Assembly: GCA_963555825.3 (NCBI GenBank)
Contig: CAUVXB020000001.1
Location: forward strand, 896,001-960,000
DNA: 64,000 bases
Direction: 5' to 3'
Origin: Alphaproteobacteria bacterium
GTDB taxonomy: Bacteria > Pseudomonadota > Alphaproteobacteria > JAAXGF01
Part shown: in pieces, positions 3,087-50,470 of the stretch
Layout of the letters: every line of letters begins with the position of its first letter
Numbering within the stretch: position 1 is the first letter of the stretch
Program-made: the position numbers and the translations under genes
The notes under the pieces: model-generated
The model's input: only the letters and a program-made list of their open reading frames with translations
Databases searched by the model: none
What the model was told of the DNA's origin: nothing

Positions 3087-3657
3087 TGGTCTGGACAACG
3101 GGGCGCACTTTATATGACCAGCGGATGGTGGGGAAGAAAGGGCCAGGTCGTACGATATATGACCAGATCAAGTTACTGCCGGAGGGTGATCGATGTCCCT
3201 TGTGCGACCAACGCAATGTATCGACGCTGGATCATATCCTGCCAAAGATCCTCTATCCCGCCCTTGCTGTAGCACCGGATAATCTCGTTGGTGCGTGCTT
3301 CGAATGCAACAAGGCCAAGCTGGCCACAGCTCCAGTTACGCCGCAAGACACTCTCCTTCACCCGTACTTCGACGATGTCAGCCACGAGCAGTGGTTGAAG
3401 GCGGGGATCGTGCCACAAGCCCGCCCGCTGTGATCTTTAGGGTTGAAGCGCCGCACAGCTGGCCCGCCGATTTGACGATTCGCGTACGACACCAGTTCGA
3501 CATTTTCGGATTACCGTCGCTCTATTCCAGTGAAGCGGCCCGTGAGATCAGCAACATTCGCCATAACCTCCAGACCCATTTCGATGCGGGTGGAACTGGG
3601 GCGGTACAGAACGAACTAATGCTGTATCGCACCCGGTTCCTTGGACACAAGTTTGTC

Positions 3658-4569
3658 TCATGCGGCGGGCCTGAGTGACATCGCGGTGTGCCACGCCTGA
3701 CGAGCTTGAGCGGGGCTCAGGTAGCCGTTCTTCTCCACGATCCACTGGGCATTGTACTGTTCGACGAACCCGCGGACGGCGTTCCGCAGCTCCGCGATGT
3801 TGCGGTAGATGCGGCCATGGATGATCTGTTCCTTGAGCGTGCGATTGAACCTCTCGGCGACGCCGTTGGTCTGGGGCTGTTCGACGAAGGCGTAGGACGG
3901 CTGGATGCCCCAGAACTTGATCTGGTTGGTGAAGTGGTCCGACAGATACTGGGAGCCGTGATCCATCCGCAAGGCCAGCCCCCGCGCCGCACCGGCGGAG
4001 GTCGAGGCATACAGCCTCGCAAGCCCCATGGAGATCGGCTGAAGGGCGGCGAAGCGGTCGCCTCGCTTGCACACATGCCAGCCGACGCACTCGGCGTTCC
4101 AATGCTCGATGGCGGTGAATATCCAGCCCCAGCCGTCGTCCACCGTGAACACCCGAACGCCGTCCGTGCCCCACATGAGGTTGGGGGCATGGGTGATGAT
4201 CTCACCGACATGGGGATTTCCGCCACGGCGGCGGCAGCGATGGGGCGAGAGCAGGTTGTTCTCGCGCATCACCCGGAGCCCCCGCTTGCGGGAAACACGG
4301 ATGCCACGACAGACCCGAAGCCGAGCCCAGACCTTGCGGTGTCCCTCGCCCTCCCAGGGGGATGCCTCCAGGTCGGCCTCGATGGCCACCAGCAGAGCCT
4401 CGTCCGAGATCGAGGGCTTCGGTCCCCGGCGCTTTGCTGGTGGGCGCTCAGCGGTGGCCTGCTGCCGGGATTTCATGGCGTAGAACGAGGAACGGGCAAA
4501 ACCCCAGGCCGCACAGACCCGCTGGAGGCCGTAGGCCAAACCCGTGCCGGGAGAGGTGGCGGCACTCAT
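3658..4569 (-). CDS. rve/DDE transposase OrfB, copy 1
   Basis: WGTDG, RMDHGSQY, TNGVAERFNRTLKEQ. Confidence 0.92.
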   Translation of the reverse strand: MSAATSPGTGLAYGLQRVCAAWGFARSSFYAMKSRQQATAERPPAKRRGPKPSISDEALLVAIEADLEASPWEGEGHRKVWARLRVCRGIRVSRKRGLRVMRENNLLSPHRCRRRGGNPHVGEIITHAPNLMWGTDGVRVFTVDDGWGWIFTAIEHWNAECVGWHVCKRGDRFAALQPISMGLARLYASTSAGAARGLALRMDHGSQYLSDHFTNQIKFWGIQPSYAFVEQPQTNGVAERFNRTLKEQIIHGRIYRNIAELRNAVRGFVEQYNAQWIVEKNGYLSPAQARQAWHTAMSLRPAA

Positions 4570-4976: not shown

Positions 4977-5226
4977 GTTCCGGTCCTCCTTGGACACTTC
5001 GATTAAGCCAATTCTGTGTCCAAGGAAATCGGGTCCGACTCAGAACGAACTAATGCGTCAATGGTACTCTCGCCGTGCAAATCGGCTTAACTCGTGGCAA
5101 ACGGCAACCTATGAAGCACTCGCTCACGACGCTTGGTTTTGTGATGGCGGATTCGCTTGAGACTCCACGTCGCAACCGAATGGCCCACGGAGCTTGAAGC
5201 ATCGATGTCTCCCAAACACAAACAGG

Positions 5227-6646
5227 TGTATCGCACCCGGTTCCTTGGACACAAGTTTGTCTCATGCGGCGGGCCTGAGTGACATCGCGGTGTGCCACGC
5301 CTGACGAGCTTGAGCGGGGCTCAGGTAGCCGTTCTTCTCCACGATCCACTGGGCATTGTACTGTTCGACGAACCCGCGGACGGCGTTCCGCAGCTCCGCG
5401 ATGTTGCGGTAGATGCGGCCATGGATGATCTGTTCCTTGAGCGTGCGATTGAACCTCTCGGCGACGCCGTTGGTCTGGGGCTGTTCGACGAAGGCGTAGG
5501 ACGGCTGGATGCCCCAGAACTTGATCTGGTTGGTGAAGTGGTCCGACAGATACTGGGAGCCGTGATCCATCCGCAAGGCCAGCCCCCGCGCCGCACCGGC
5601 GGAGGTCGAGGCATACAGCCTCGCAAGCCCCATGGAGATCGGCTGAAGGGCGGCGAAGCGGTCGCCTCGCTTGCACACATGCCAGCCGACGCACTCGGCG
5701 TTCCAATGCTCGATGGCGGTGAATATCCAGCCCCAGCCGTCGTCCACCGTGAACACCCGAACGCCGTCCGTGCCCCACATGAGGTTGGGGGCATGGGTGA
5801 TGATCTCACCGACATGGGGATTTCCGCCACGGCGGCGGCAGCGATGGGGCGAGAGCAGGTTGTTCTCGCGCATCACCCGGAGCCCCCGCTTGCGGGAAAC
5901 ACGGATGCCACGACAGACCCGAAGCCGAGCCCAGACCTTGCGGTGTCCCTCGCCCTCCCAGGGGGATGCCTCCAGGTCGGCCTCGATGGCCACCAGCAGA
6001 GCCTCGTCCGAGATCGAGGGCTTCGGTCCCCGGCGCTTTGCTGGTGGGCGCTCAGCGGTGGCCTGCTGCCGGGATTTCATGGCGTAGAACGAGGAACGGG
6101 CAAAACCCCAGGCCGCACAGACCCGCTGGAGGCCGTAGGCCAAACCCGTGCCGGGAGAGGTGGCGGCACTCATCGCCGCGACCTCCGCCGCCCCAAAGGG
6201 CCGGACGTCTCCGTCTTGGCCTCCAGCAGTTCCACCTGCATGATCAACTCCCCGATCCGCTTCATGGCGATGTCCAGTTCCGCCTTCACCGGATCGCCCT
6301 TGCGTTCCTTGAGCGAGGCATCGATCCCGGCGATCGCCTTCTCACGCCACTGCTCGAGCCGGAAAATCTCCACGCCCAACTGCCGCGACAAAAGTTCCAC
6401 CGGCTCGCCACGCAAAAGCCGCAGGGCAACCTCACGCTTGCGCGTCACCGTCCACCGCTGGCCAAGTCCCAGCGGGCCTGCCGGCGAAACCTGGCCCGGG
6501 GAAAACGTGGACGAGCCAAGCTCGCCCTCGTTTACCACAGGCCCATCAACAGCAACTTTGTTCTCAAAATTGTCGGTCATGTTCCGGTCCTCCTTGGACA
6601 CTTCGATTAAGCCAATTCTGTGTCCAAGGAAATCGGGTCCGACTCA
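5227..6646 (-). mobile_element. 1420-bp IS, copy 2 (OrfB 5262-6173, OrfA 6170-6580), 14-bp target duplication
   Basis: Same ends, length and translations as copy 1; CAAACACAAACAGG at 5213-5226 and 6647-6660. Confidence 0.93.
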
Positions 6647-21942: not shown

Positions 21943-22223
21943 AGCACTATCCGATCGACTCAGTCGGAATCTACCGGCCCGCGCCAATCTATTTGGGACA
22001 AGAGGGGGGGCCACCGACCGTTCGGCCAGTCCTTGTGGGATAAAGAATGGCCTTGTGGGATAAAGAATGGCCTTGTGGGATAAAGAATGGCCTTGTGGGA
22101 TAAAGAATGGCCTTGTGGGATAAAGAATGGCCTTGTGGGATAAAGAATGGCCTTGTGGGATAAAGATTGGCATGCGCGGCGATTGAGCGCAGGGCACCGA
22201 AGGTGACCGTTCAAAGACTCTAA
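21939..22223 (+). repeat. MITE family A, copy 4, containing a 7x20-bp tandem array
   Basis: TAGAG...CTCTA ends; (CCTTGTGGGATAAAGAATGG)x7 at 22031-22170, last unit with one substitution. Confidence 0.88.
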
Positions 22224-38326: not shown

Positions 38327-38681
38327 CTCTCAACTCCCCTTGGTTGCCACGGCCCGCTGCCACAATCCCCGAGAAAAGAGGCCCCGCGTCGAGCGGGACC
38401 CCAATAAACGAGCAAAATTATGCGAGACAATTCGGCGCGGTCAGGAGCCGGCCTTGATCTCGTCGAACAGACGGATGTGCTGTTCCTTGAGCTCGGGCGG
38501 CACGTAATCGTACGCGTGCGATCCATCGTTCGACACTCTGCCTCGCCACGGGTGTCCCCCAGGTACGGATAGCTTATCGGTATCAGTCTAGGAGAGGAGG
38601 ATGGCGGAGTCTAACGGTGCCGTGTCGATGACGGCCTTGGCCAAAAGCAGGCAGTGCGGGGTCTGCTTCAAGCGGGCCAAA

Positions 38682-38904
38682 GAAGAAGTCGAAGGCGCTC
38701 TCGGCATCCTTCCTGGTTTCGGCCATCCAGATGTCTTGCAGGCGCCCCTTGGCTTTCTTTTGCGGGGATCTGCTTCCCCAGGAGCGCCGCCAAGGCTTCC
38801 CCGCAAAAGGCTAGCGCGGCAGGATCGCCGACGTGAAGCGGATGGCGCCGTCCCCCCGGTCCCGCACACGGGGTTGGCGCACGCTCACCGGGCCGATCCC
38901 GGTC
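38682..38904 (-). other. Patchwork of IS256 fragments identical to parts of 48209-48911
   Basis: 82-, 28- and 93-bp exact colinear matches. Confidence 0.85.
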
Positions 38905-38950
38905 GGAAGCGGACGCTGTGCGCCGACCTCGCCGACGTCTGCTGCTGACC

Positions 38951-39107
38951 CAGCCTGTGTGAAAACGCCGGCAAATCCCACTAACAGGAGAGTGTTCGGT
39001 CAATTCTTCGAAGGTGTCCTCTGATAAGATATTGATTTTGTTGAGTTTAGAAATTCGAGAATTCAGAGAAAATCGTGCCGATAGCGCTCGGGGGCGGTTT
39101 TTACACA
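38951..39107. mobile_element. IS1182-type MITE whose right TIR is split by the IS110 element (remainder GCCTG at 40627-40631)
   Basis: Left CAGCCTGTGTGAAAAC; reconstructed right GTTTTTACACA|GCCTG; GACC repeated outside both ends. Confidence 0.7.
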
Positions 39108-39199
39108 TGGCGTAACTCGGGGATCGGGCACTGCTCTCCTTAATGTAGCAACGACCGGCATGGGCCGGGCGAGCACACTGAAAGAGCAGGAGAGCAGCT

Positions 39200-40265
39200 A
39201 TGGAACTGTATGTTGGAATGGATGTATCGCTCAAGGAGACCTCGATACGCCGCCTTCATTTCAACGCCGTACACAAGATTCTGCGTGGTCGATGACAACG
39301 GCGAGATCGTGTCCGAGGGCGTGGTGATCTCGGAGCCGGCGGCAATCGCGGCGTATATCAGGACAACGGCGCCGCACGCAAAGCGCATCGGTCTGGAGAC
39401 CGGTCCGACGACGACCTGGCTGTGGCATGAGCTCAGGGCGCTCGGCTTGCCGGTGATCTGCATCGATGCGCGTCATGCCAAGGCGGCGCTGTCGATGCAG
39501 ATCAACAAGAGCGACCGGAACGATGCCGCCGGGATCGCGCGGATCATGCAGTGCGGTTGGTACAAGGAGGTCCAAGTCAAGAGCGTGGCGTGCCACGAGA
39601 TACGGGCCGTCCTGAACAGCCGGGCCCAGTTGGTCAAGATCAAGCGTGATCTCGAGAACCAGATCCGTGGCTTGCTCAAGAACCTCGGCCTCGTCATCGG
39701 CAAGGCGGGCGGCAATGTCTTCCGTCGCCGGGTCGAAGAGCTGCTTGGCGGGCAGGGTCTTTTGTCGGAGGCCGTTCGGCCCCTTCTGGAAGTCCGCGAG
39801 AAGGTCGGCCGAGAGATCGCCGCGCTCTATCGCAAGCTGCTGGGCCTGGCGCGGAACGACGAGGACAGCAGACGTTCCATGACGGTTCCAGGCATCGGGC
39901 CGATCACCGCCTTGGCCTTCCACTCGGCGATCGACGAGCCGAGCCGCTTCCGACGTTCCCGGAGTGTCGGCGCGTACATCGGGCTGACGCCGCGCCGCCA
40001 TGCTTCCGGCGAGGTCGATTGGACGGGGCGGATCTCCAAATGCGGCGATCGAATGCTCAGGACCTACCTCTTCGAGGCGGCCGGCGTGCTGCTCACCCGG
40101 GTGCCGCGATGGTGCGCGCTCAAGGCCTGGGGTCACAGGTTGTGGAAACGCATCGGCTTCAAGAAGGCCAAGATCGCCGTGGCACGGAAGCTGGCGGTCA
40201 TCCTCCATCGCATGTGGCGTGATGGAACGGACTTCATCTGGTCAACCAAGGAGGCGGCCGCATAG
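39200..40265 (+). CDS. IS110 DEDD transposase/bridge recombinase, frameshifted by a 34-bp insert at 39247-39280
   Basis: MELYVGMDVSLKETSI|CVVD, IGLETG, KSDRNDA, PGIGPITA, HASGE, AVARKLA. Confidence 0.9.
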
Positions 40266-40500
40266 GGAAACAACGTCCAAGCATTCCGCGAGAGCGGAAC
40301 CGATGTCCCTGTCGGGACGGCGGCGTCGGCGAGATCGATCCAGGCTTTGCGATGCCTCACCGAGGCAAGCGCGCTTCACACATTGATCCGCCAACGTCCT
40401 CCAACGCCATCATGCGGAGGGCCGAGCCCCTACCGCGGAGAGAACAGTGAACCCGGCAGGTACGTCACGGAGAGCTTGACAACCAACCCCCGAGTTAGAG
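40266..40500 (+). ncRNA. Putative bridge/seek RNA of IS1111 #1 (boundaries approximate)
   Basis: Four 7-8-nt segments match the target flanks and the element ends (see findings). Confidence 0.72.
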
Positions 40501-40624
40501 AACATTGATCCGCCAACGTCCTCCAACGCCATCATGCGGAGGGCCGAGCCCCTACCGCGGAGAGAACAGTGAACCCGGCAGGTACGTCACGGAGAGCTTG
40601 ACAACCAACCCCCGAGTTAGAGAA
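40381..40624 (+). repeat. Exact 122-bp tandem duplication of the IS1111 donor-loop region and right end
   Basis: 40381-40502 = 40503-40624. Confidence 0.95.
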
Positions 40625-40748
40625 CAGCCTGGACCCTATGCGGACATAAGACGTTCTGGGACCGCGTGCCTAATGTCGCCGCCATGACGGCGATTGATCC
40701 CGTAGCATCCCTGTCGCCCGACAGGACGGGCGTGTGCTGCGCGGGTCG

Positions 40749-40855
40749 AAGTGCGGACCACAGTCTTTCGTGACAGCTCGGGACCGAATACGCGGTCGGA
40801 TGCCCATTCCGCTGTCATTGTTGGCGGTTGTGAGAAGCCATCTGGGGAATTCCGG
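40749..40855 (+). repeat. 107-bp segment homologous to 49786-49892 (inverted); probable IS1380-type 3' end remnant
   Basis: Shared TCGGATGCCCATTC..GAGAAGCCATCTGG.GAAT.CCGG; terminus resembles TATGGGGAATGTCGG at 1465-1479. Confidence 0.6.
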
Positions 40856-40928
40856 TTAAGACAGTGGCCTTCTCAACGACCGGCGTTCAAGATAGTACAA
40901 ACCCAATCGAATTGTGGCCACCCGTGTC

Positions 40929-42461
40929 ATGGCTGAAGCTACCGTGAACGCCGAACCGCAACATCCCGACCGGTTGACCCTGCGCGGTATGATGATTGCG
41001 CTGTGCGCGACCGTCAGCACTGGGGCCTACGCCTTCACATGGAATTCGGTGGGCGTCGCCCTGCCACGGATGCAGGGCAGCTTCTCGGCGACCACCGATC
41101 AGATCACCTGGGTCGCCATATCGTTCGTCATCGGCAGCGCCATGATGACCGGCTGCATCGGCTGGTTCAGCTCCCGGTTCGGGCGCAAGCAGTTGTTTAT
41201 GTTCTCCATCGCCGGTTATGTGGTGAGCCTGCTGGGCTGCGCCTCGGCCACGACGTTGGGCGAGGAGGTGGTGTGGCGGTTTCTCCAGGGCCTCCTCGGG
41301 GCGCCGATGATGCCGTTGGGTCAGGCCATCGCGGTCAACGCCTTTCCCGCCGACCGACACGCTCAGGCGACGTCGCTATGGGCGCTGGGCTTCGTTTCGG
41401 CCAACGTCTTCTCGCCGGTCATCGCCGGCGGACTGGTCGAGAATTACGGCTGGCCGTGGATCTATTATGTGACGGTGCCCGTCGGCATCGCTGTCTTCAT
41501 CGCCTCGTGGTTCCTGGTGCCGAACGAAGCCAAGGACCCGCGCCCGCTCGACTGGACCGGATTTCTCGCCCTGATCATCGGCGTCGCCACGTTGCAATTG
41601 ATGCTTGCCCGGGGCCAGCGCCTCGACTGGTTCGAGTCCAACGAGATCATCATCGAGGCGGTGGTCGCTGTCATCGCGATTCACGTCTTCATCGTTCATA
41701 CCATTACCGGCAAAAGCCCCTTCGTCGACCGCGCTCTGTTTCGCGACCGCAATTACGCCCTTGGCCAGGTGTTCATCTTCACCGTCGGCGCGGTAATGTT
41801 CCTGCCGCTCCTGTTGCTGCCGCTGCTGATGCAGCAGATCGCCGGCTATCCGCCCATCGAAACCGGCTATCTGCTGTTGCCCCGAGGCATCGGCTCGGTC
41901 CTCGGGCTGCTGGTCATGAGTCAGATGCGCGACCGCGTCGACCCGCGTCCGCTGATCTTCATGGGCCTCGCCACCATGGCCTGGTCGGCCTGGGACATGT
42001 CCCAGTGGACCGTCGAAGTTGGTAGGTGGGACATCGCCTTTCCCAATTTCATGCAGGGTTGCGCCGCCAGTTTTATATGGGCGCCGCTCAACAAGCTGGT
42101 GCTGTCGAACCTGGGCCGGCGATTTCAGGATCAGGGTTACGCGTTGTTCTATCTAAACTTCGATATAGGCAGCGCGCTCGGCACCGCCTCGATCATCGCG
42201 CTTCACGCCCGCCACAGCCAGATCAACCACGCCATCCTCAGCGAGTACGTCAATCCCTTCAACGATTGGTTCCGCATGGGCACCGGGTCGGGCGCCTGGT
42301 CACTGTCCGATAGCAGCAGTCTGGCCGCGATCGAGGTCGAGATCACCCGCCAGGCGACGATGATCTCCTACAACAACAGCTTCATGGTGATCGCCATTTC
42401 ACTGGCCGCGCTGATCCCCCTGATCCTGCTATTCCGCCACCGCCGGCCCAAGGGGCCTTGA
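40929..42461 (+). CDS. DHA2 (EmrB/QacA) MFS efflux permease
   Basis: VALPRMQGSFSATTDQITWV, RFGRK, RFLQG, LDWFES; about 14 TM segments. Confidence 0.93.
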   Translation: MAEATVNAEPQHPDRLTLRGMMIALCATVSTGAYAFTWNSVGVALPRMQGSFSATTDQITWVAISFVIGSAMMTGCIGWFSSRFGRKQLFMFSIAGYVVSLLGCASATTLGEEVVWRFLQGLLGAPMMPLGQAIAVNAFPADRHAQATSLWALGFVSANVFSPVIAGGLVENYGWPWIYYVTVPVGIAVFIASWFLVPNEAKDPRPLDWTGFLALIIGVATLQLMLARGQRLDWFESNEIIIEAVVAVIAIHVFIVHTITGKSPFVDRALFRDRNYALGQVFIFTVGAVMFLPLLLLPLLMQQIAGYPPIETGYLLLPRGIGSVLGLLVMSQMRDRVDPRPLIFMGLATMAWSAWDMSQWTVEVGRWDIAFPNFMQGCAASFIWAPLNKLVLSNLGRRFQDQGYALFYLNFDIGSALGTASIIALHARHSQINHAILSEYVNPFNDWFRMGTGSGAWSLSDSSSLAAIEVEITRQATMISYNNSFMVIAISLAALIPLILLFRHRRPKGP

Positions 42462-45312: not shown

Positions 45313-45668
45313 ATGAAAGTTACCACTGTCGGCCTCGATCTGGCCAAGAACGTTTTCCAAGTCCACGGCATTGACAGCACCGGCAAGGTCATCGTCCGCC
45401 GATCGTTGCGCCGGCGCCAGATGATGCCGTTCTTCGGCAAGCTGGAACCGTGTCTGATCGGTATCGAGGCGTGCGGCACGAGCCACTTCTGGTCCCGCGA
45501 GCTCCAGGCATTGGGGCACGAGGTGAAATTGATGCCACCGATCTACGTCAAACCATACGTCAAGCGCGGCAAGACCGACGCCGCCGATGCGGAGGCGATC
45601 TGCGAGGCGGTGACTGACGCGCCCCACGATGCGGTTCGTCGCGATCAAGTCGGCCGAGCAGCAATCGG
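45313..45668 (+). pseudogene. IS110 transposase N-terminal fragment
   Basis: VGLDLAKNVFQVHG, IGIEAC, KTDAADAEAICEA; 4-bp TGAC duplication near 45613; cut by the 1420-bp IS. Confidence 0.9.
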
Positions 45669-47088
45669 TGTATCGCACCCGGTTCCTTGGACACAAGTTT
45701 GTCTCATGCGGCGGGCCTGAGTGACATCGCGGTGTGCCACGCCTGACGAGCTTGAGCGGGGCTCAGGTAGCCGTTCTTCTCCACGATCCACTGGGCATTG
45801 TACTGTTCGACGAACCCGCGGACGGCGTTCCGCAGCTCCGCGATGTTGCGGTAGATGCGGCCATGGATGATCTGTTCCTTGAGCGTGCGATTGAACCTCT
45901 CGGCGACGCCGTTGGTCTGGGGCTGTTCGACGAAGGCGTAGGACGGCTGGATGCCCCAGAACTTGATCTGGTTGGTGAAGTGGTCCGACAGATACTGGGA
46001 GCCGTGATCCATCCGCAAGGCCAGCCCCCGCGCCGCACCGGCGGAGGTCGAGGCATACAGCCTCGCAAGCCCCATGGAGATCGGCTGAAGGGCGGCGAAG
46101 CGGTCGCCTCGCTTGCACACATGCCAGCCGACGCACTCGGCGTTCCAATGCTCGATGGCGGTGAATATCCAGCCCCAGCCGTCGTCCACCGTGAACACCC
46201 GAACGCCGTCCGTGCCCCACATGAGGTTGGGGGCATGGGTGATGATCTCACCGACATGGGGATTTCCGCCACGGCGGCGGCAGCGATGGGGCGAGAGCAG
46301 GTTGTTCTCGCGCATCACCCGGAGCCCCCGCTTGCGGGAAACACGGATGCCACGACAGACCCGAAGCCGAGCCCAGACCTTGCGGTGTCCCTCGCCCTCC
46401 CAGGGGGATGCCTCCAGGTCGGCCTCGATGGCCACCAGCAGAGCCTCGTCCGAGATCGAGGGCTTCGGTCCCCGGCGCTTTGCTGGTGGGCGCTCAGCGG
46501 TGGCCTGCTGCCGGGATTTCATGGCGTAGAACGAGGAACGGGCAAAACCCCAGGCCGCACAGACCCGCTGGAGGCCGTAGGCCAAACCCGTGCCGGGAGA
46601 GGTGGCGGCACTCATCGCCGCGACCTCCGCCGCCCCAAAGGGCCGGACGTCTCCGTCTTGGCCTCCAGCAGTTCCACCTGCATGATCAACTCCCCGATCC
46701 GCTTCATGGCGATGTCCAGTTCCGCCTTCACCGGATCGCCCTTGCGTTCCTTGAGCGAGGCATCGATCCCGGCGATCGCCTTCTCACGCCACTGCTCGAG
46801 CCGGAAAATCTCCACGCCCAACTGCCGCGACAAAAGTTCCACCGGCTCGCCACGCAAAAGCCGCAGGGCAACCTCACGCTTGCGCGTCACCGTCCACCGC
46901 TGGCCAAGTCCCAGCGGGCCTGCCGGCGAAACCTGGCCCGGGGAAAACGTGGACGAGCCAAGCTCGCCCTCGTTTACCACAGGCCCATCAACAGCAACTT
47001 TGTTCTCAAAATTGTCGGTCATGTTCCGGTCCTCCTTGGACACTTCGATTAAGCCAATTCTGTGTCCAAGGAAATCGGGTCCGACTCA
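45669..47088 (-). mobile_element. 1420-bp IS, copy 3 (OrfB 45704-46615, OrfA 46612-47022), no target duplication
   Basis: Same ends, length and translations as copies 1 and 2; the two flanks are unrelated. Confidence 0.93.
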
Positions 47089-47847
47089 CAAAGGGCTACT
47101 CGCCGCGGCGGCTGACGGCAGACGAGGAAGCGGCGCTGGCGGCGGTCATCATCGCCGGGCCGGAGCCTGAGCGCGACGGGGTTTGCGCCTGGACCCGGGC
47201 CGATCTGTGCCGCTGGCTGGAGGAGCGCTTCGCCAAGACCTACCACCCCTCGAGCATGACCCGGGTTCTACGGCGGATGGGATTTTCCCGCCAGAAGGCG
47301 CGCCCGAGCCACCCGCGAAGGGACGCCGAAGCGCAGGAGCGCTTCAAAAAAGGGGGCTTCGCGACATCCTGAAGGCGACCGCCGCGGCGCATCCCGACAA
47401 GCGCCTACAGCTGTGGTTTCAGGATGAAGCGCGCGTCGGCAACAAGGGCCGGGTGTGTCACCGGTGGTGGCGCAGGGGCGAGCGTGCCCCCGGGACGCGT
47501 CAAATCGGCTACCAGTGGGCCTACATCTTCTCCGCCGTGCGCCCGGACACCGGCGACGACGTCACCCTGGTGATGCCGAGCGTCAACGCCAAGGTCATGG
47601 ACCTGTTTCTCGCACACTTCGCCGATACCCTGGACCAGGATGCGCACGCCGTCATGATGTGCGACGGCGCCGGTTGGCACGACGAGCGCGCCCTCACCGT
47701 CCCCGACAACGTCACCTTGGCGCTGTTGCCGCCTTACAGTCCCGAACTCAACCCCGTCGAGCGGGTTTGGCTCTACCTACGCGAACGCTTCCTATCGCTC
47801 CGCGTCCTCGACGACACCGAGGCCATCATCGACGCCTGTTGCCAAGC

Positions 47848-49222
47848 GAGCTATTGTCAAAAGTTGTGTATGGGCTGATCATGCGGCGGCGCGATCCTGG
47901 CGTTCTCCATCTACGAATTTGACGCCGCGAATGATCTCGGCGAGATGGTTCGATCCATCGAGTTTTCTCCATTTTCTCTGAGCGCACTGGCATAGTTTGA
48001 AGACCATGGCCATCGCCGTCTTGCGCGACAGGCAGCCCTTGGTCCGGTAGGTGCGCAGACGAACCGTGGCGAACGTGCTCTCGATGGGGTTGGTCGTGCG
48101 TACATGCTTCCAGTGCTCGGCGGGGAAGTCGTAGAACGTCAGCAGGACGTCGCGGTCCTTGGCCAGGCAGGCCGCGGCCTTGTCGTACTTCGGCCCGTAG
48201 GCTTCCAGGAAGAAGTCGAAGGCGCTCTCGGCATCCTTCCTGGTTTCGGCCATCCAGATGTCTTGCAGGCGCCCCTTGGCTTTCTTTTGCAGACCCTTGG
48301 GCAGCTTGTTCAAGACGTTGCCCGTCTTGTGAACCCAGCAGCGTTGCTCGCGGGCGCCTGGGTAGACTTGGCGGAGCGCCTTCCAGAAGCCGAGCGCGCC
48401 GTCGCCGAGCGCCAGTTGCGGACCCATTTCAAGGCCGCGCCGCTTGAGATCGAGCAGAACTTCGAGCCAGGACTGCTCACTTTCGCGATAGCCGTCGGCG
48501 ATGGCGATCAGTTCCTTCTGTCCCTTGTCCGTGGCCCCGACGATCACCAGGATGCACTGCTTCTCTTCCTCCATGCGGGCGCTGAAATAGATGCCGTCCA
48601 CCCAGAAATAGACGTAGCGCTTGGCCGTGAGGTCGCGCCGTTGCCAGCGCTCCGCCTCAACCCCCCAGACCTCTTTCAGCCGGGTGATCGTGGAGGCCGA
48701 AAGCCCCGGCGCGGAGCTCCCCAGGAGCGCCGCCAAGGCTTCCCCGAAGTCGCCGGTGGAAATGCCCTTCAGATACAGCCATGGCAAAAGGTCTTCCAGG
48801 CTCTTGGCGCGGCGCAGATAGCGCGGCAGGATCGCCGACGTGAAGCGGATGGCGCCGTCCCCCCGGTCCCGCACACGGGGTTGGCGCACGCTCACCGGGC
48901 CGATCCCGGTCTGGATGAAGCGTTCCGGCAGATATCCATTGCGGACAACCCGGCGGCGGCCGGCGGCGTCAACAAGCGCCGCATGGCTACCCAAAAACAC
49001 GGAGACCTCGGCCTCAACGGCTTGGGCCAACAACTCGCGAGCTCCAGCTTGTAGGACTTCCGTCAACGGATCTTTCTGAAAATCAGATGGGTTTTGAAAA
49101 GCAACAACGGTATTCTCTTTCATGGCGTATCCTTCCTTGGCTTAGCTCAAGTGGTGACATCAACAATCACCAGGATACGCCGCCTTCATTTCAACGCCGT
49201 ACACAAGATTCGGTTATAGCTC
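47848..49222 (-). mobile_element. IS256-family element with 9-bp target duplication
   Basis: GAGCTAT and ATAGCTC ends; TTGCCAAGC at 47839-47847 and 49223-49231. Confidence 0.95.
47879..49123 (-). CDS. IS256 (mutator-type) transposase
   Basis: VRNGYLPER, LYLKGISTGD, WVDG, GDGALGFW, QRCWVHK, RTTNPIES. Confidence 0.95.
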   Translation of the reverse strand: MKENTVVAFQNPSDFQKDPLTEVLQAGARELLAQAVEAEVSVFLGSHAALVDAAGRRRVVRNGYLPERFIQTGIGPVSVRQPRVRDRGDGAIRFTSAILPRYLRRAKSLEDLLPWLYLKGISTGDFGEALAALLGSSAPGLSASTITRLKEVWGVEAERWQRRDLTAKRYVYFWVDGIYFSARMEEEKQCILVIVGATDKGQKELIAIADGYRESEQSWLEVLLDLKRRGLEMGPQLALGDGALGFWKALRQVYPGAREQRCWVHKTGNVLNKLPKGLQKKAKGRLQDIWMAETRKDAESAFDFFLEAYGPKYDKAAACLAKDRDVLLTFYDFPAEHWKHVRTTNPIESTFATVRLRTYRTKGCLSRKTAMAMVFKLCQCAQRKWRKLDGSNHLAEIIRGVKFVDGERQDRAAA

Positions 49223-49994: not shown

Positions 49995-50210
49995 CTTCGC
50001 CGTCTGCTGGTGATCGGCATGACATCACAGCTTCAATCGGCACGGCGCAAGCCCGAGGTTCACCCCTGGATCACCAACTTGCTGGTAAGCAAGCCCAACA
50101 AGCTGGTCGCCGTGGCCATGGCCAACAAGGCCGCGCGGATCGCCTGGGTCATCATGACCCGTGGCGAGGCCTACCGCGCTCACCGACCCGCAACTGAGGA
50201 GACCGCATGA
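49995..50210 (+). pseudogene. IS110 transposase C-terminal fragment
   Basis: LRRLLVIG..KLVAVAMANKAARIAWVIMTRGEAY. Confidence 0.85.
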
Positions 50211-50470
50211 CCAATTGATCGCTCGAAGGCACAACGCTTTCGACGATTGCAAGGACGACGAGACGTGATGGCGAACCGGTCAGACCGGGGATCGGGACAA
50301 CCCGACCAATGTCCTGGGTGTTCGAGCCCGCTAAGCGGACAACCCGACGAATGTCCTGGGTGTTCGAGCCCGCTAAGCAGATAGGGACCCGATCCACGGA
50401 TACCATCAGGGCCAGCGGTTCAACAAAACCGCATCAACAGGCCGGACACAAGACTGTACCTGACTAGGTC
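50211..50470 (+). ncRNA. Putative bridge/seek RNA of IS1111 #2 with a 42-bp tandem duplication (50295-50378)
   Basis: AATGTCCTG and TAAGCAG segments match the right and left flanks. Confidence 0.68.

What the first reader, a model, noticed from the sequence alone, without database searches (positions are those of the whole stretch)
39100..40633. Readable bridge RNA: IS1111 #1 appears programmed to hit IS1182-type terminal repeats
Seen: the 3' non-coding region has, in order, TCCAGGCT (40339-40346; reverse complement of the right flank AGCCTGGA, 8/8), TTCACACA (40375-40382; left flank TTTACACA, 7/8), ACGCCAT (40404-40410; reverse complement of the left end ATGGCGT) and AGAGAACA (40439-40446; equal to the right end). 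The rebuilt target GTTTTTACACAGCCTGG is the right TIR of the adjacent MITE. Known: IS110/IS1111 bridge RNAs carry target and donor guide pairs, and IS4321/IS5075 target Tn21 TIRs. Inference: an RNA-guided recombinase with a CA core that parasitises IS1182-family ends; a candidate programmable tool.
Basis: partly seen in the sequence, partly recalled or inferred. Interest (0 to 1): 0.72.

Follow-up and report, generated by a model that had tools for sequence, protein, structure and literature searches.

The report
Insertion sequence guided to another transposon's ends
This is a broken copy of a known kind of RNA-guided jumping gene whose guide RNA is readable and aims it at the end repeats of another family of jumping genes; it is a clear example, not a new kind of system.

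Summary
All four motifs are at the stated coordinates. No dinucleotide shuffle of the non-coding region held all four (0 of 20,000).

- **The element.** It is an IS1111-group, IS110-family insertion sequence at window 39107-40625. It sits 10 bp inside the right terminal repeat of a 170-bp MITE that has IS1182-type ends.
- **Copies in the genome.** There are six full-length copies, and all lie at this position in such repeats.
- **Relatives.** In 64 usable related loci, the two proposed target-guide blocks are the only variable parts of a conserved 3' region. They change together with the flanks (0 of 10,000 permutations reach the observed match).
- **Structure.** A consensus fold puts the target guides in an internal loop. 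The donor guides flank a second hairpin.
It holds, with four corrections:
  - The crossover core is more likely AC than CA.
  - The window copy is defective, because a 34-bp IS256-end fragment breaks the transposase gene.
  - The window copy also carries a 122-bp tandem duplicate of its right end.
  - Three intact copies exist elsewhere in the genome, so no repair is needed.
- **Novelty.** 3' bridge/seekRNAs in IS1111 elements, and IS110-family elements that target another element's repeats, are already published. This is a new member of a known kind.

The parts
38947..39106 (.). MITE with IS1182-type terminal repeats, left and main part. Left repeat is 38947-38966. The inner part of the right repeat, GTTTTTACAC, is 39097-39106.
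   Evidence: Uninterrupted ~170-bp copies with the same paired ends exist elsewhere in the genome.
40626..40635 (.). Outer 10 bp (AGCCTGGACC) of the MITE's right terminal repeat, separated from the rest by the insertion.
39107..40625 (+). IS1111-group (IS110-family) insertion sequence, 1519 bp here. The canonical copy is 1363 bp. Boundaries are given for an AC core and are ambiguous by up to 2 nt.
   Evidence: six copies, identical ends. (PF01548 + PF02371; NF033542 238.2 bits, cut-off 140).
39113..39122 (+). Left subterminal inverted repeat, TAACTCGGGG.
   Evidence: Relatives carry TAATTCCGGG paired with CCCGGAATTA, a compensated change.
39200..40265 (+). Transposase gene, broken. The first 16 codons are in frame from 39200. 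A 34-bp insert at about 39247-39280 shifts the frame. The rest reads to the stop at 40263-40265. The intact form is 343 aa.
39244..39281 (+). 38 nt identical to the terminal 38 bp of an IS256-family element. 34 nt of these are extra relative to the other copies.
   Evidence: 34 exact 38-nt matches elsewhere in the genome, listed in the table. (end of the copy at 47879-49211). (NF033543 320 bits).
40304..40464 (+). Predicted bridge/seekRNA core, closed by stem P1 (40304-40316 with 40452-40464).
   Evidence: Identical in all six genome copies except one P1 base in the first unit of copy A.
40337..40347 (+). 5' strand of the target internal loop. It holds the right-target guide TCCAGGCT (40339-40346), the complement of the right flank AGCCTGGA.
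   Evidence: (covaries with right flanks).
40374..40384 (+). 3' strand of the target internal loop. It holds the left-target guide TTCACAC(A) (40375-40382), the same sense as the left flank plus core.
40404..40410 (+). Candidate right-donor guide ACGCCAT, the complement of the element's first bases ATGGCGT.
   Evidence: The block is nearly invariant in relatives while the left end varies at one position, giving 6 of 7 matches in most.
40439..40446 (+). Candidate left-donor guide AGAGAAC(A), the same sense as the right end.
   Evidence: Guide block and right end are nearly invariant in relatives.
40413..40437 (+). Donor-arm hairpin P4 (40413-40421 with 40428-40437).
   Evidence: 2 pairs with compensatory change.
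40504..40625 (+). Second, tandem copy of the last 122 bp: the 3' strand of P2, both donor guides, P4, the 3' strand of P1, the right subterminal repeat (40610-40619) and the right end. The junction joins the first right end (...GAGAAC, ending 40503) to the base after the left-target guide.

Best explanation
Window 39107-40625 is a defective copy of an IS1111-group (IS110-family) insertion sequence. Intact copies encode a 343-aa DEDD recombinase and, in the 239-nt region after the gene, a bridge RNA (seekRNA) of about 160 nt.

- **Target arm.** An internal loop carries two guides. UCCAGGCU pairs with the top strand of the right half-site AGCCTGGA. UUCACAC pairs with the bottom strand of the left half-site plus core, TT(T/C)AC-AC.
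- **Donor arm.** A second hairpin is flanked by ACGCCAU and AGAGAAC. These match the joined ends of the excised circle.
- **Insertion site.** The RNA-protein complex inserts the circle 10 bp inside the terminal inverted repeat of MITEs and elements of the IS1182 family. This splits that repeat. No target duplication is made beyond the shared core.

Shown here: the element's anatomy, the common insertion site of the six copies, guide-flank covariation in relatives, and the conserved fold.

Inferred from published IS1111 and IS621 work: that the guides act as RNA, that a circle is the intermediate, and the chemistry.

The window copy cannot supply its own recombinase. Its RNA gene and ends are intact, so it might be moved by the three intact copies.
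For: **Family**
- PF01548 + PF02371.
- NF033542 'IS110 family RNA-guided transposase', 238.2 bits against a cut-off of 140.
- The C-terminal domain aligns to IS621 transposase 8wt6 at E 3.1e-09, with GLTPRRHASG opposite GLTPRRYESG.

**Copies in this genome**
- There are 6 full-length copies with identical ends.
- The left flank is TTTACAC in 5 of 6 and TTCACAC in 1.
- The right flank is AGCCTGGA in 4 of 6, AGTCTGGA in 1 and AGCCTAGT in 1.

**Discrimination among sites**
- Of 77 uninterrupted repeat-like sites, only 3 carry AGCCTGGA.
- 54 carry AG(T/G)CTGG(A/G).

**Relatives**
- 79 loci were fetched, at 67-90% amino-acid identity. 64 were usable.
- The right-guide complement matches the first 8 flank bases 8/8 in 19, 7/8 in 26, 6/8 in 13, 5/8 in 1, and 3/8 or fewer in 5.
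- The left guide matches 7-8 of 8 in 59.
- Cognate pairs beat non-cognate pairs: 7.17 against 5.26 of 10 on the right, and 6.92 against 5.35 of 8 on the left. 0 of 10,000 permutations reach the observed value on either side.
- Example: L027 and L028 differ in the guide complement (AGCCAAGACC and AGCCAGGGTC), and each flank follows 10/10.

**Structure**
- 41 pairs, with 98.6% of cells paired.
- 8 pairs show compensatory change, against 3.1 +/- 1.1 in shuffles (0 of 500 reach 8).
- Slid controls give 37-46% paired.

**Literature**
- The guide order is that reported for IS1111 seekRNAs (PMC11187229 section 9).
- The 3' location is that reported for IS1111 bridge RNAs (PMC11208160, passages).
Against: - **No direct RNA evidence.** Rfam has no match (0 hits at E <= 1). 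No sigma-70-like promoter was found in 39000-40700 (0 sites).
- **Transcriptome data are weak.** Contigs from RNA libraries of two studies cover the region. The tool warns that such libraries can hold DNA, and contigs show neither ends nor strand.
- **Donor guides are untested by covariation.** They and the ends barely vary. Where the left end does vary (ATGGGGT in most relatives), the guide does not follow (its complement stays ATGGCGT, 6 of 7).
- **Exceptions among relatives.** 5 of 64 relatives have right flanks unrelated to their guide (L022, L026, L049, L075, L087). L083 was dropped for a truncated left flank and also has a non-matching right flank.
- **Exceptions in this genome.** The left guide has one mismatch to 5 of the 6 occupied sites. 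Copies B and C sit in imperfect right half-sites.
- **Structure bias.** The structure was derived from the same alignment on which its pairs were counted.
Confidence: 0.9

Rival explanations
1. The four motifs work as DNA, not RNA. They would be internal copies of end and target sequences that serve as extra recombinase-binding or synapsis sites, as in transposons with multiple end-binding sites.
For: No transcript was shown here. The donor-type motifs are invariant, as protein-binding sites often are.
Against: The motifs sit in a fold with compensatory base changes, which points to selection on RNA pairing. One target motif is the complement of its flank and the other is the same sense, in the strand pattern published for seekRNAs. 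The recombinase family is experimentally RNA-guided (PMC11208160, PMC11187229; abstracts and passages).
Confidence: 0.04
2. Guide-flank agreement records history rather than function. Stretches of target would be copied into the 3' region by aberrant recombination or gene conversion, while target choice is made by the protein.
For: Aberrant joints between the right end and internal sites do occur in this element. One lies exactly at the left-guide block.
Against: Such capture would not place a complement of the right half-site and a sense copy of the left half-site on opposite strands of one conserved internal loop in about 20 independent guide classes. Recombinases at 82-86% identity to the query use different targets that follow the guides (L027 and L028).
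Confidence: 0.03
3. The matches in the window are chance resemblances in a GC-rich non-coding region.
For: Each motif alone occurs in 0.3-2.3% of shuffles.
Against: All four occurred together in 0 of 20,000 shuffles. Family-wide covariation gives 0 of 10,000 permutations.
Confidence: 0.005

Closest known systems
IS1111-family elements with a 3' seekRNA (ISEc11, ISKpn4, ISPa11, ISPst6; Siddiquee et al. 2024, PMC11187229; abstract and sections 6, 9 and 13 read)
   Same: - DEDD transposase of 330-350 aa with a GL-P----SG motif.
- Subterminal inverted repeats.
- The long non-coding region lies downstream of the gene.
- Two short target matches are present, with the top-strand complement 5' of the bottom-strand complement.
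   Different: - The target is a different sequence class (ends of IS1182-family elements and MITEs).
- The terminal extensions beyond the subterminal repeats are about 6 bp on each side here, or 4 on the right without the core. The paper states 7 (or 6) on the left and 3 on the right.
- The RNA was not shown here.
IS621 bridge RNA system (Durrant et al. 2024, PMC11208160, passages read; structures 8wt6-8wt9)
   Same: - Target and donor are each read by a pair of guides on one RNA.
- There is a dinucleotide core.
- The recombinase C-terminal domains are homologous (E 3.1e-09).
   Different: - IS621 carries the RNA in its left end and has only very short subterminal repeats.
- Only the C-terminal part aligns by sequence.
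- Here the donor guides flank a hairpin in a junction closed by an outer stem, rather than lying in a clearly separate second internal loop.
IS4321 / IS5075 (Partridge & Hall 2003; title seen in reference lists only; the paper is not held)
   Same: IS1111-family elements that insert at one position inside the terminal inverted repeats of another transposon family.
   Different: Their hosts are 38-bp repeats of Tn21-family transposons. Here the hosts are ends of IS1182-family elements and MITEs.
IS1383 targeting the inverted repeats of IS1384 (Muller, Lauf & Herrmann 2001; title seen in a reference list only)
   Same: An IS110-family element whose specific target is the inverted repeat of another insertion sequence.
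   Different: It is a different host element and organism (Pseudomonas putida). I could not read the paper, so the position and the family of IS1384 are not compared.
ISPpu9 and its ssr9 module (Pares-Guillen et al. 2025, PMC12288879; abstract read)
   Same: An IS110-family element whose 3' small-RNA module forms circles of its own and occurs in extra copies. This may parallel the extra 3' modules seen here.
   Different: The extra ssr9 copies lie elsewhere in that genome, and Ssr9 was not needed for transposition. Here the extra copies are tandem and joined exactly at the right end.

Membership tests
IS110 family, IS1111 group | DEDD (RuvC-like) N-terminal domain plus PF02371 C-terminal domain | tested here: met
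   PF01548 at 2.8e-13 and PF02371 at 1.9e-22 on the window ORF. NF033542 scores 238.2 bits against a cut-off of 140.
IS110 family, IS1111 group | Transposase of 330-350 aa with a GL-P----S(T)G motif (PMC11187229 section 6) | tested here: met
   The intact copies A, B and C give 343 aa containing GLTPRRHASG. This aligns with the corresponding IS621 segment.
IS110 family, IS1111 group | Subterminal inverted repeats of about 7-17 bp | tested here: met
   TAACTCGGGG at 39113-39122 pairs with CCCCGAGTTA at 40488-40497 and 40610-40619. Relatives carry the compensated pair TAATTCCGGG / CCCGGAATTA.
IS110 family, IS1111 group | The longer non-coding region lies downstream of the transposase gene | tested here: met
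   About 93 nt upstream against 239 nt downstream in the canonical copy.
IS110 family, IS1111 group | Terminal extensions of 7 (or 6) bp on the left and 3 bp on the right beyond the subterminal repeats (PMC11187229 introduction) | tested here: not met
   The left extension is ATGGCG (6). The right extension is GAGAAC (6, or 4 without the AC core). This is a lineage difference. Boundaries were fixed by comparison with empty sites.
IS110 family, IS1111 group | Sequence-specific insertion without a target duplication beyond the core | tested here: met
   All six copies are at the same position. Empty sites equal left flank plus right flank with one shared AC(A).
Bridge RNA / seekRNA | A pair of target guides, one complementary to each strand of the target and meeting at the core, that changes with the target | tested here: met
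   covariation in 64 loci, with 0 of 10,000 permutations reaching the observed match.
Bridge RNA / seekRNA | A pair of donor guides matching the element's two ends | tested here: inconclusive
   Matches of 7/7 and 7-8/8 are present in the window. Ends and guides hardly vary. Where the left end varies, the guide does not follow (6/7 in most relatives).
Bridge RNA / seekRNA | Guides presented in loops of a conserved stem-loop structure | tested here: met
   The target guides lie in an internal loop between P2 and P3. The donor guides flank P4 inside the junction closed by P1.
Bridge RNA / seekRNA | The RNA is made, binds the recombinase and is required for transposition | not testable with these tools
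   The only data are contigs from RNA libraries that cover the region. These cannot show ends, strand or transcription.
IS1182 family (the host element) | Transposase matching the IS1182 equivalog model | tested here: met
   The 1.69-kb element at C1:337994-339685 scores 451.6 bits on NF033551 against a cut-off of 270. The MITE shares only the ~20-bp terminal repeats with it.

The most novel reading that the evidence does not exclude
A whole lineage of IS1111 elements may live as specialised parasites on the ends of IS1182-family elements, with their RNA guides re-tuned to each variant of the host repeat.

- 27 of 79 relatives have an IS1182-type transposase gene in the 1.5-kb flanks. This includes the guide classes with ...CAAC left guides, whose hosts are only 24-30% identical to this genome's IS1182.
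- Separately, the recombinase appears to make off-target joints between its right end and internal AC sites. One such site is the DNA that encodes its own left-target guide.
- These joints have amplified the RNA module in tandem. Copy C carries three complete RNA genes and copy A carries two.
Probability: 0.35. Interest if true: 0.55.

Novelty: new member of a known kind. Interest (0 to 1): 0.35.

Why it matters
The system itself is known: bridge/seekRNA-guided IS110 and IS1111 recombinases were published in 2024. The value here is as a clean natural data set, for three reasons.

- One closely related lineage (67-90% recombinase identity) shows about 20 guide classes whose targets can be read from the flanks. 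That is a natural reprogramming series, useful for learning which guide positions matter and how many mismatches are tolerated.
- It adds the IS1182 family to the short list of mobile elements whose terminal repeats are hunted by IS110-family elements. This is a form of transposon-on-transposon parasitism that inactivates the host's end.
- The exact right-end-to-internal joints give sequence-level hints about the crossover point (AC) and about off-target activity. Both are relevant to anyone engineering these enzymes.

Tried and rejected
- **Rfam.** An E-value scan of 38500-41200 gave no family. This is uninformative, since no IS1111 bridge RNA model matched anything.
- **Promoter and terminator scan.** No promoter-like site in 39000-40700, and one terminator-like site inside the ORF, which is below the shuffle expectation.
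- **Single-sequence folds.** The 240-nt region gave z = -2.83 and the 161-nt core gave z = -1.11. These are not convincing alone, and the minimum-energy fold pairs part of the guide loop. I relied on the alignment fold instead.
- **RNA libraries.**
  - 21 runs were listed, 7 on record as RNA. Four runs from 2 studies were laid.
  - Contigs cover the 3' region up to the right end and continue into GCCTCGACC or GCCTGGGTC flanks.
  - They cannot show transcription, ends or strand, so they are not used as evidence.
- **Plasmid collection.** Only one distant hit: a Bradyrhizobium plasmid at 74% over 42% of the query.
- **Partridge & Hall 2003 (PMC219399).** Not held.
- **Literature search for this target class.** A search for IS1111 + IS1182 + 'inverted repeat' gave 3 papers, none about this by title. 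I did not find this target class in print, but that rests on this one search plus the two 2024 papers. ISfinder could not be consulted.
- **A second IS110-type copy in the window.** I looked and rejected it. tblastn with this transposase finds only 39200-40262. The 62-aa ORF at 50019-50204 has no Pfam hit.
- **Collinearity of IS256 fragments.** The fragments at 38682-38904 and the 38-nt piece in the ORF are in the same order as in the full IS256 copy. I found no single-event model that fits and leave this open.
Full report
**1. What is in the window**

- The element begins (A)TGGCGTAACTCGGGG after ...GGTTTTTACAC(A). It ends ...CCCCGAGTTAGAGAAC(A) before GCCTGGACC.
- In 20,000 dinucleotide-preserving shuffles of the 3' non-coding region, the motifs occurred singly in 55, 394, 467 and 132 shuffles. 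All four never occurred together.
- The ORF 39210-40265 carries PF01548 and PF02371. It scores 238.2 bits on NF033542, 'IS110 family RNA-guided transposase', whose cut-off is 140.

**2. The window copy is damaged and rearranged**

- BLAST against the laid genome finds six full-length copies. The canonical length is 1363 bp.
- Relative to the others, the window copy has a 34-bp insert at about 39247-39280 that shifts the frame after codon 16.
- The surrounding 38 nt (39244-39281) are identical to the terminal 38 bp of an IS256-family element.
  - That element has 34 exact 38-nt matches elsewhere in the genome.
  - A copy lies in the window at 47879-49211. Its protein scores 320 bits on NF033543.
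- The last 122 bp of the window copy are tandemly duplicated at 100% identity (40380-40501 and 40502-40623).
- The transposase is intact (343 aa) in 3 of 6 copies: A, B and C. Copies D and E share a frameshift.
- The 161-nt RNA region is identical in all six copies, except for one base in a stem in the first unit of copy A.

**3. The target**

- All six copies lie at the same position of the same kind of sequence.
  - The left flank ends TTTACAC in 5 of 6 and TTCACAC in copy C.
  - The right flank starts AGCCTGGA in 4 of 6 (window, A, D, E), AGTCTGGA in C and AGCCTAGT in B.
- In the window, the flanks are the right terminal repeat of a 170-bp MITE (38947-39106 plus 40626-40635).
- Copies A and C sit in the other end of such MITEs.
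- A search for the uninterrupted 20-mer, allowing up to 4 mismatches, finds 77 sites.
  - Many occur as inverted pairs 1.69 kb apart. Several occur as pairs about 170 bp apart.
  - The 1.69-kb element at C1:337994-339685 encodes a 480-aa protein scoring 451.6 bits on the IS1182 equivalog NF033551, whose cut-off is 270.
  - 'IS1182-type' is therefore correct for the repeats. The MITE shares only those ~20 bp with the full element.
- Of the 77 empty sites, only 3 have the exact right half-site AGCCTGGA, 8 have AGCCTGGG, and 54 have AG(T/G)CTGG(A/G).
- The insertions are therefore concentrated on the rare variant that matches the guide. Exact-match sites number 7 in all (4 occupied, 3 empty), and 4 of them are occupied.

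**4. Test by relatives**

- The transposase has thousands of close relatives (7962 of 8000 scored candidates at E <= 0.001).
- From species-representative genomes I fetched 79 loci at 67-90% identity. These are mostly Alphaproteobacteria, including Bradyrhizobium.
- Aligning the regions upstream and downstream of the gene shows a highly conserved 3' region.
- Loci dropped before counting:
  - 2 of 79 had too little downstream sequence.
  - 13 more were dropped for non-canonical or unalignable ends, gaps or N: L038, L045, L050, L055, L067, L069, L070, L077, L078, L080, L083, L088 and L090.
- In the remaining 64:
  - The complement of the first block matches the first 8 bases of the right flank 8/8 in 19, 7/8 in 26, 6/8 in 13, 5/8 in 1, and 3/8 or fewer in 5 (L022, L026, L049, L075, L087).
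  - The second block matches the left flank 8/8 in 3, 7/8 in 56, 6/8 in 4 and 5/8 in 1. The usual single mismatch is at the outermost position, so the real left guide is about 7 nt including the core.
- Over 52 distinct guide-flank combinations, cognate pairs score 7.17 of 10 (right) and 6.92 of 8 (left). Non-cognate pairs score 5.26 and 5.35. No permutation of 10,000 reached the observed sums.
- About 20 guide classes are seen. Examples of right-guide complement with its flank are AGCCAAGA, AACCAAGA, AGCCAGGG, AGCCTCGG and AAAATC(G/T)G. Examples of left guides are TCACAC, TTACAC, TTCAAC, TGCAAC and ATCAAC.
- Against it stand the five unrelated right flanks, L083 (guide complement AGCCAGGG, flank AAAATCGG), and the imperfect sites of copies B and C.

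**5. Structure**

RNAalifold was run on 37 sequences: the window plus 36 of the 62 distinct 3' regions listed. In window coordinates it gives:

| Feature | Coordinates |
|---|---|
| Closing stem P1 | 40304-40316 with 40452-40464 |
| Target arm, basal stem P2 | 40323-40336 with 40385-40397 |
| Target arm, inner stem P3 | 40348-40351 with 40370-40373 |
| Variable apical hairpin | above P3 |
| Donor hairpin P4 | 40413-40421 with 40428-40437 |

- The two target guides lie on opposite strands of the internal loop between P2 and P3 (40337-40347 and 40374-40384).
- ACGCCAT and AGAGAAC(A) flank P4 inside the junction closed by P1.
- Pair counts: 98.6% of cells are paired. Eight pairs show compensatory change, against 3.1 +/- 1.1 in shuffles (0 of 500 reach 8). 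Slid controls give 37-46% paired.
- The structure was derived from these same sequences, which favours it.
- 'Two internal loops' is exact for the target pair and approximate for the donor pair.

**6. Donor guides**

- ACGCCAT complements ATGGCGT, the first bases of the element. AGAGAAC(A) equals the right end.
- Ends and guides are almost invariant in the family.
- Where the left end differs (ATGGGGT in most relatives), the guide complement stays ATGGCGT, which is 6 of 7.
- Their role therefore rests on the match and on analogy with IS621 and seekRNA systems.

**7. The core**

- Flank and right end share ACA, so the boundary is ambiguous in this genome.
- Two relatives have G instead of A after ...GAGAAC, and their guide complement begins with G (L089, L093).
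- Three aberrant joints run ...GAGAAC directly into G or C (copies A and C; L067).
- These five observations fit a crossover at AC, with the next base belonging to the right half-site or to the left end of the element. They do not fit CA.

**8. Right-end-to-internal joints (side finding)**

- Four of the six genome copies carry tandem repeats of their 3' part.

  | Copy | Repeated 3' part |
  |---|---|
  | Window | 122 bp |
  | B | 23 bp |
  | A | 633 bp |
  | C | 207 bp, twice |

- In every case the joint is the exact right end, fused to an internal site that ends in AC. L067 shows the same (1 of 73 right-end motifs in the 79 related loci).
- In the window copy, the internal site is the left-target guide's own coding DNA (CTTCACAC|A). 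That DNA is by construction a perfect left half-site.
- Because one partner is always the exact end, recombinase action is more likely than replication slippage.
- Possible routes are self-insertion followed by homologous deletion, unequal sister exchange, or re-integration of a 3' mini-circle. I could not distinguish among them.
- As a result, copy C holds three complete RNA genes and copy A holds two.
- ISPpu9 forms circles of its 3' small-RNA module alone (PMC12288879, abstract). This is the nearest published parallel.

**9. Lineage-wide association**

- tblastn with this genome's IS1182 transposase finds a homologue in the 1.5-kb flanks of 27 of 79 relatives.
- Nearly all are on the left side and end about 100-250 bp from the IS1111 left end. 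That is the expected picture if the IS1111 sits in a terminal repeat facing inward.
- 8 of these loci have ...ACAC left guides and 18 have other left guides; one more (L024) has a hit but no guide call. The ...CAAC classes include hosts that are only 24-30% identical.
- The other 52 loci were not classified. They may be MITEs, solo ends, short contigs or unrelated sites.

**10. Comparison with the literature**

- IS1111-group elements were predicted to carry a bridge RNA in the right end in 93.0% of ISfinder entries (PMC11208160, passages).
- seekRNAs with this guide order were shown experimentally for four IS1111 members (PMC11187229, abstract and section 9).
- Targeting of another element's repeats is known for two cases, both seen as titles in reference lists only:
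  - IS4321/IS5075 on Tn21-family repeats.
  - IS1383 on the inverted repeats of IS1384.
- The C-terminal domain aligns to IS621 transposase structures at E 3.1e-09.
- One family feature is not met. The terminal extensions beyond the subterminal repeats are about 6 and 6 bp, not 7 (or 6) and 3.
- I found no paper on IS1182 ends as an IS1111 target, on the basis of one search. ISfinder and supplementary tables were not consulted.

**11. Verdict**

- The element is a new, well-documented member of a known kind.
- The particular copy in the window is a non-autonomous relic in a nest of insertion sequences.

Noticed in passing
window 40380-40623; genome copies A (C1:344233-346227), B (C1:1664826-1666211), C (C2:1372474-1374243); L067:2631-2790: Tandem partial duplications of the element's 3' part occur in 4 of 6 genome copies and 1 relative. 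They are always joined at the exact right end (...GAGAAC) to an internal site ending in AC. Copy C thereby carries three complete bridge-RNA genes and copy A carries two.
   Followed up: partly
window 39244-39281: A 38-nt stretch identical to the terminal 38 bp of an abundant IS256-family element sits inside the transposase gene. Nothing else of that element is present, so only a solo end fragment remains.
   Followed up: partly
window 38682-38763 and 38812-38904, compared with 48209-48290 and 48819-48911: Two 100%-identical fragments of the IS256-family transposase gene lie just upstream of the MITE. They are in the same order and orientation as in the full copy, and collinear with the 38-nt fragment inside the IS1111 ORF. 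No single-event history fits.
   Followed up: no
window 40476-40481 (and 40598-40603): A perfect TTGACA, nearly invariant in relatives, lies 18 nt before the terminal GAAC. After circularisation the next bases would be AT, giving GAACAT as a weak -10. This may be a junction promoter of the kind described for other IS110-family elements. The tandem joint in the window copy recreates the same GAACAT.
   Followed up: no
window 3603-3922, 5207-5526, 45649-45968: Three copies of another insertion sequence with rve integrase-core domains (IS3-like by Pfam). Two of them start 1604 bp apart.
   Followed up: partly
window 22011-22190: About eight head-to-tail copies of the 20-bp unit CCTTGTGGGATAAAGAATGG.
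   Followed up: no
window 50019-50204 and 50295-50378: A 62-aa ORF fragment that by eye resembles the C-terminus of an IS110-type transposase, followed by a 42-bp unit repeated twice. It has no Pfam hit and is not found by tblastn with this element's transposase.
   Followed up: partly
genome C2:2842352-2842537 and C2:840560-840645: Orphan 3' fragments (88-91% identical) of a related element with different guide blocks (left guide TCTTCAAT). Their right flank is AGCCTCGGC or GGCCTCGGC. They are relics of a second subfamily in the same genome.
   Followed up: partly
L083:1148-1400: A relative whose right flank (AAAATCGGCACG) fits the guide of a different class, not its own (guide complement AGCCAGGG). 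It may be a chimera, an off-target event or an assembly join.
   Followed up: no
window 47183-47878: A DDE_3 (IS630-like) transposase fragment abuts the 3' end of the IS256-family gene. The surrounding ~12 kb is a nest of insertion-sequence remains.
   Followed up: no
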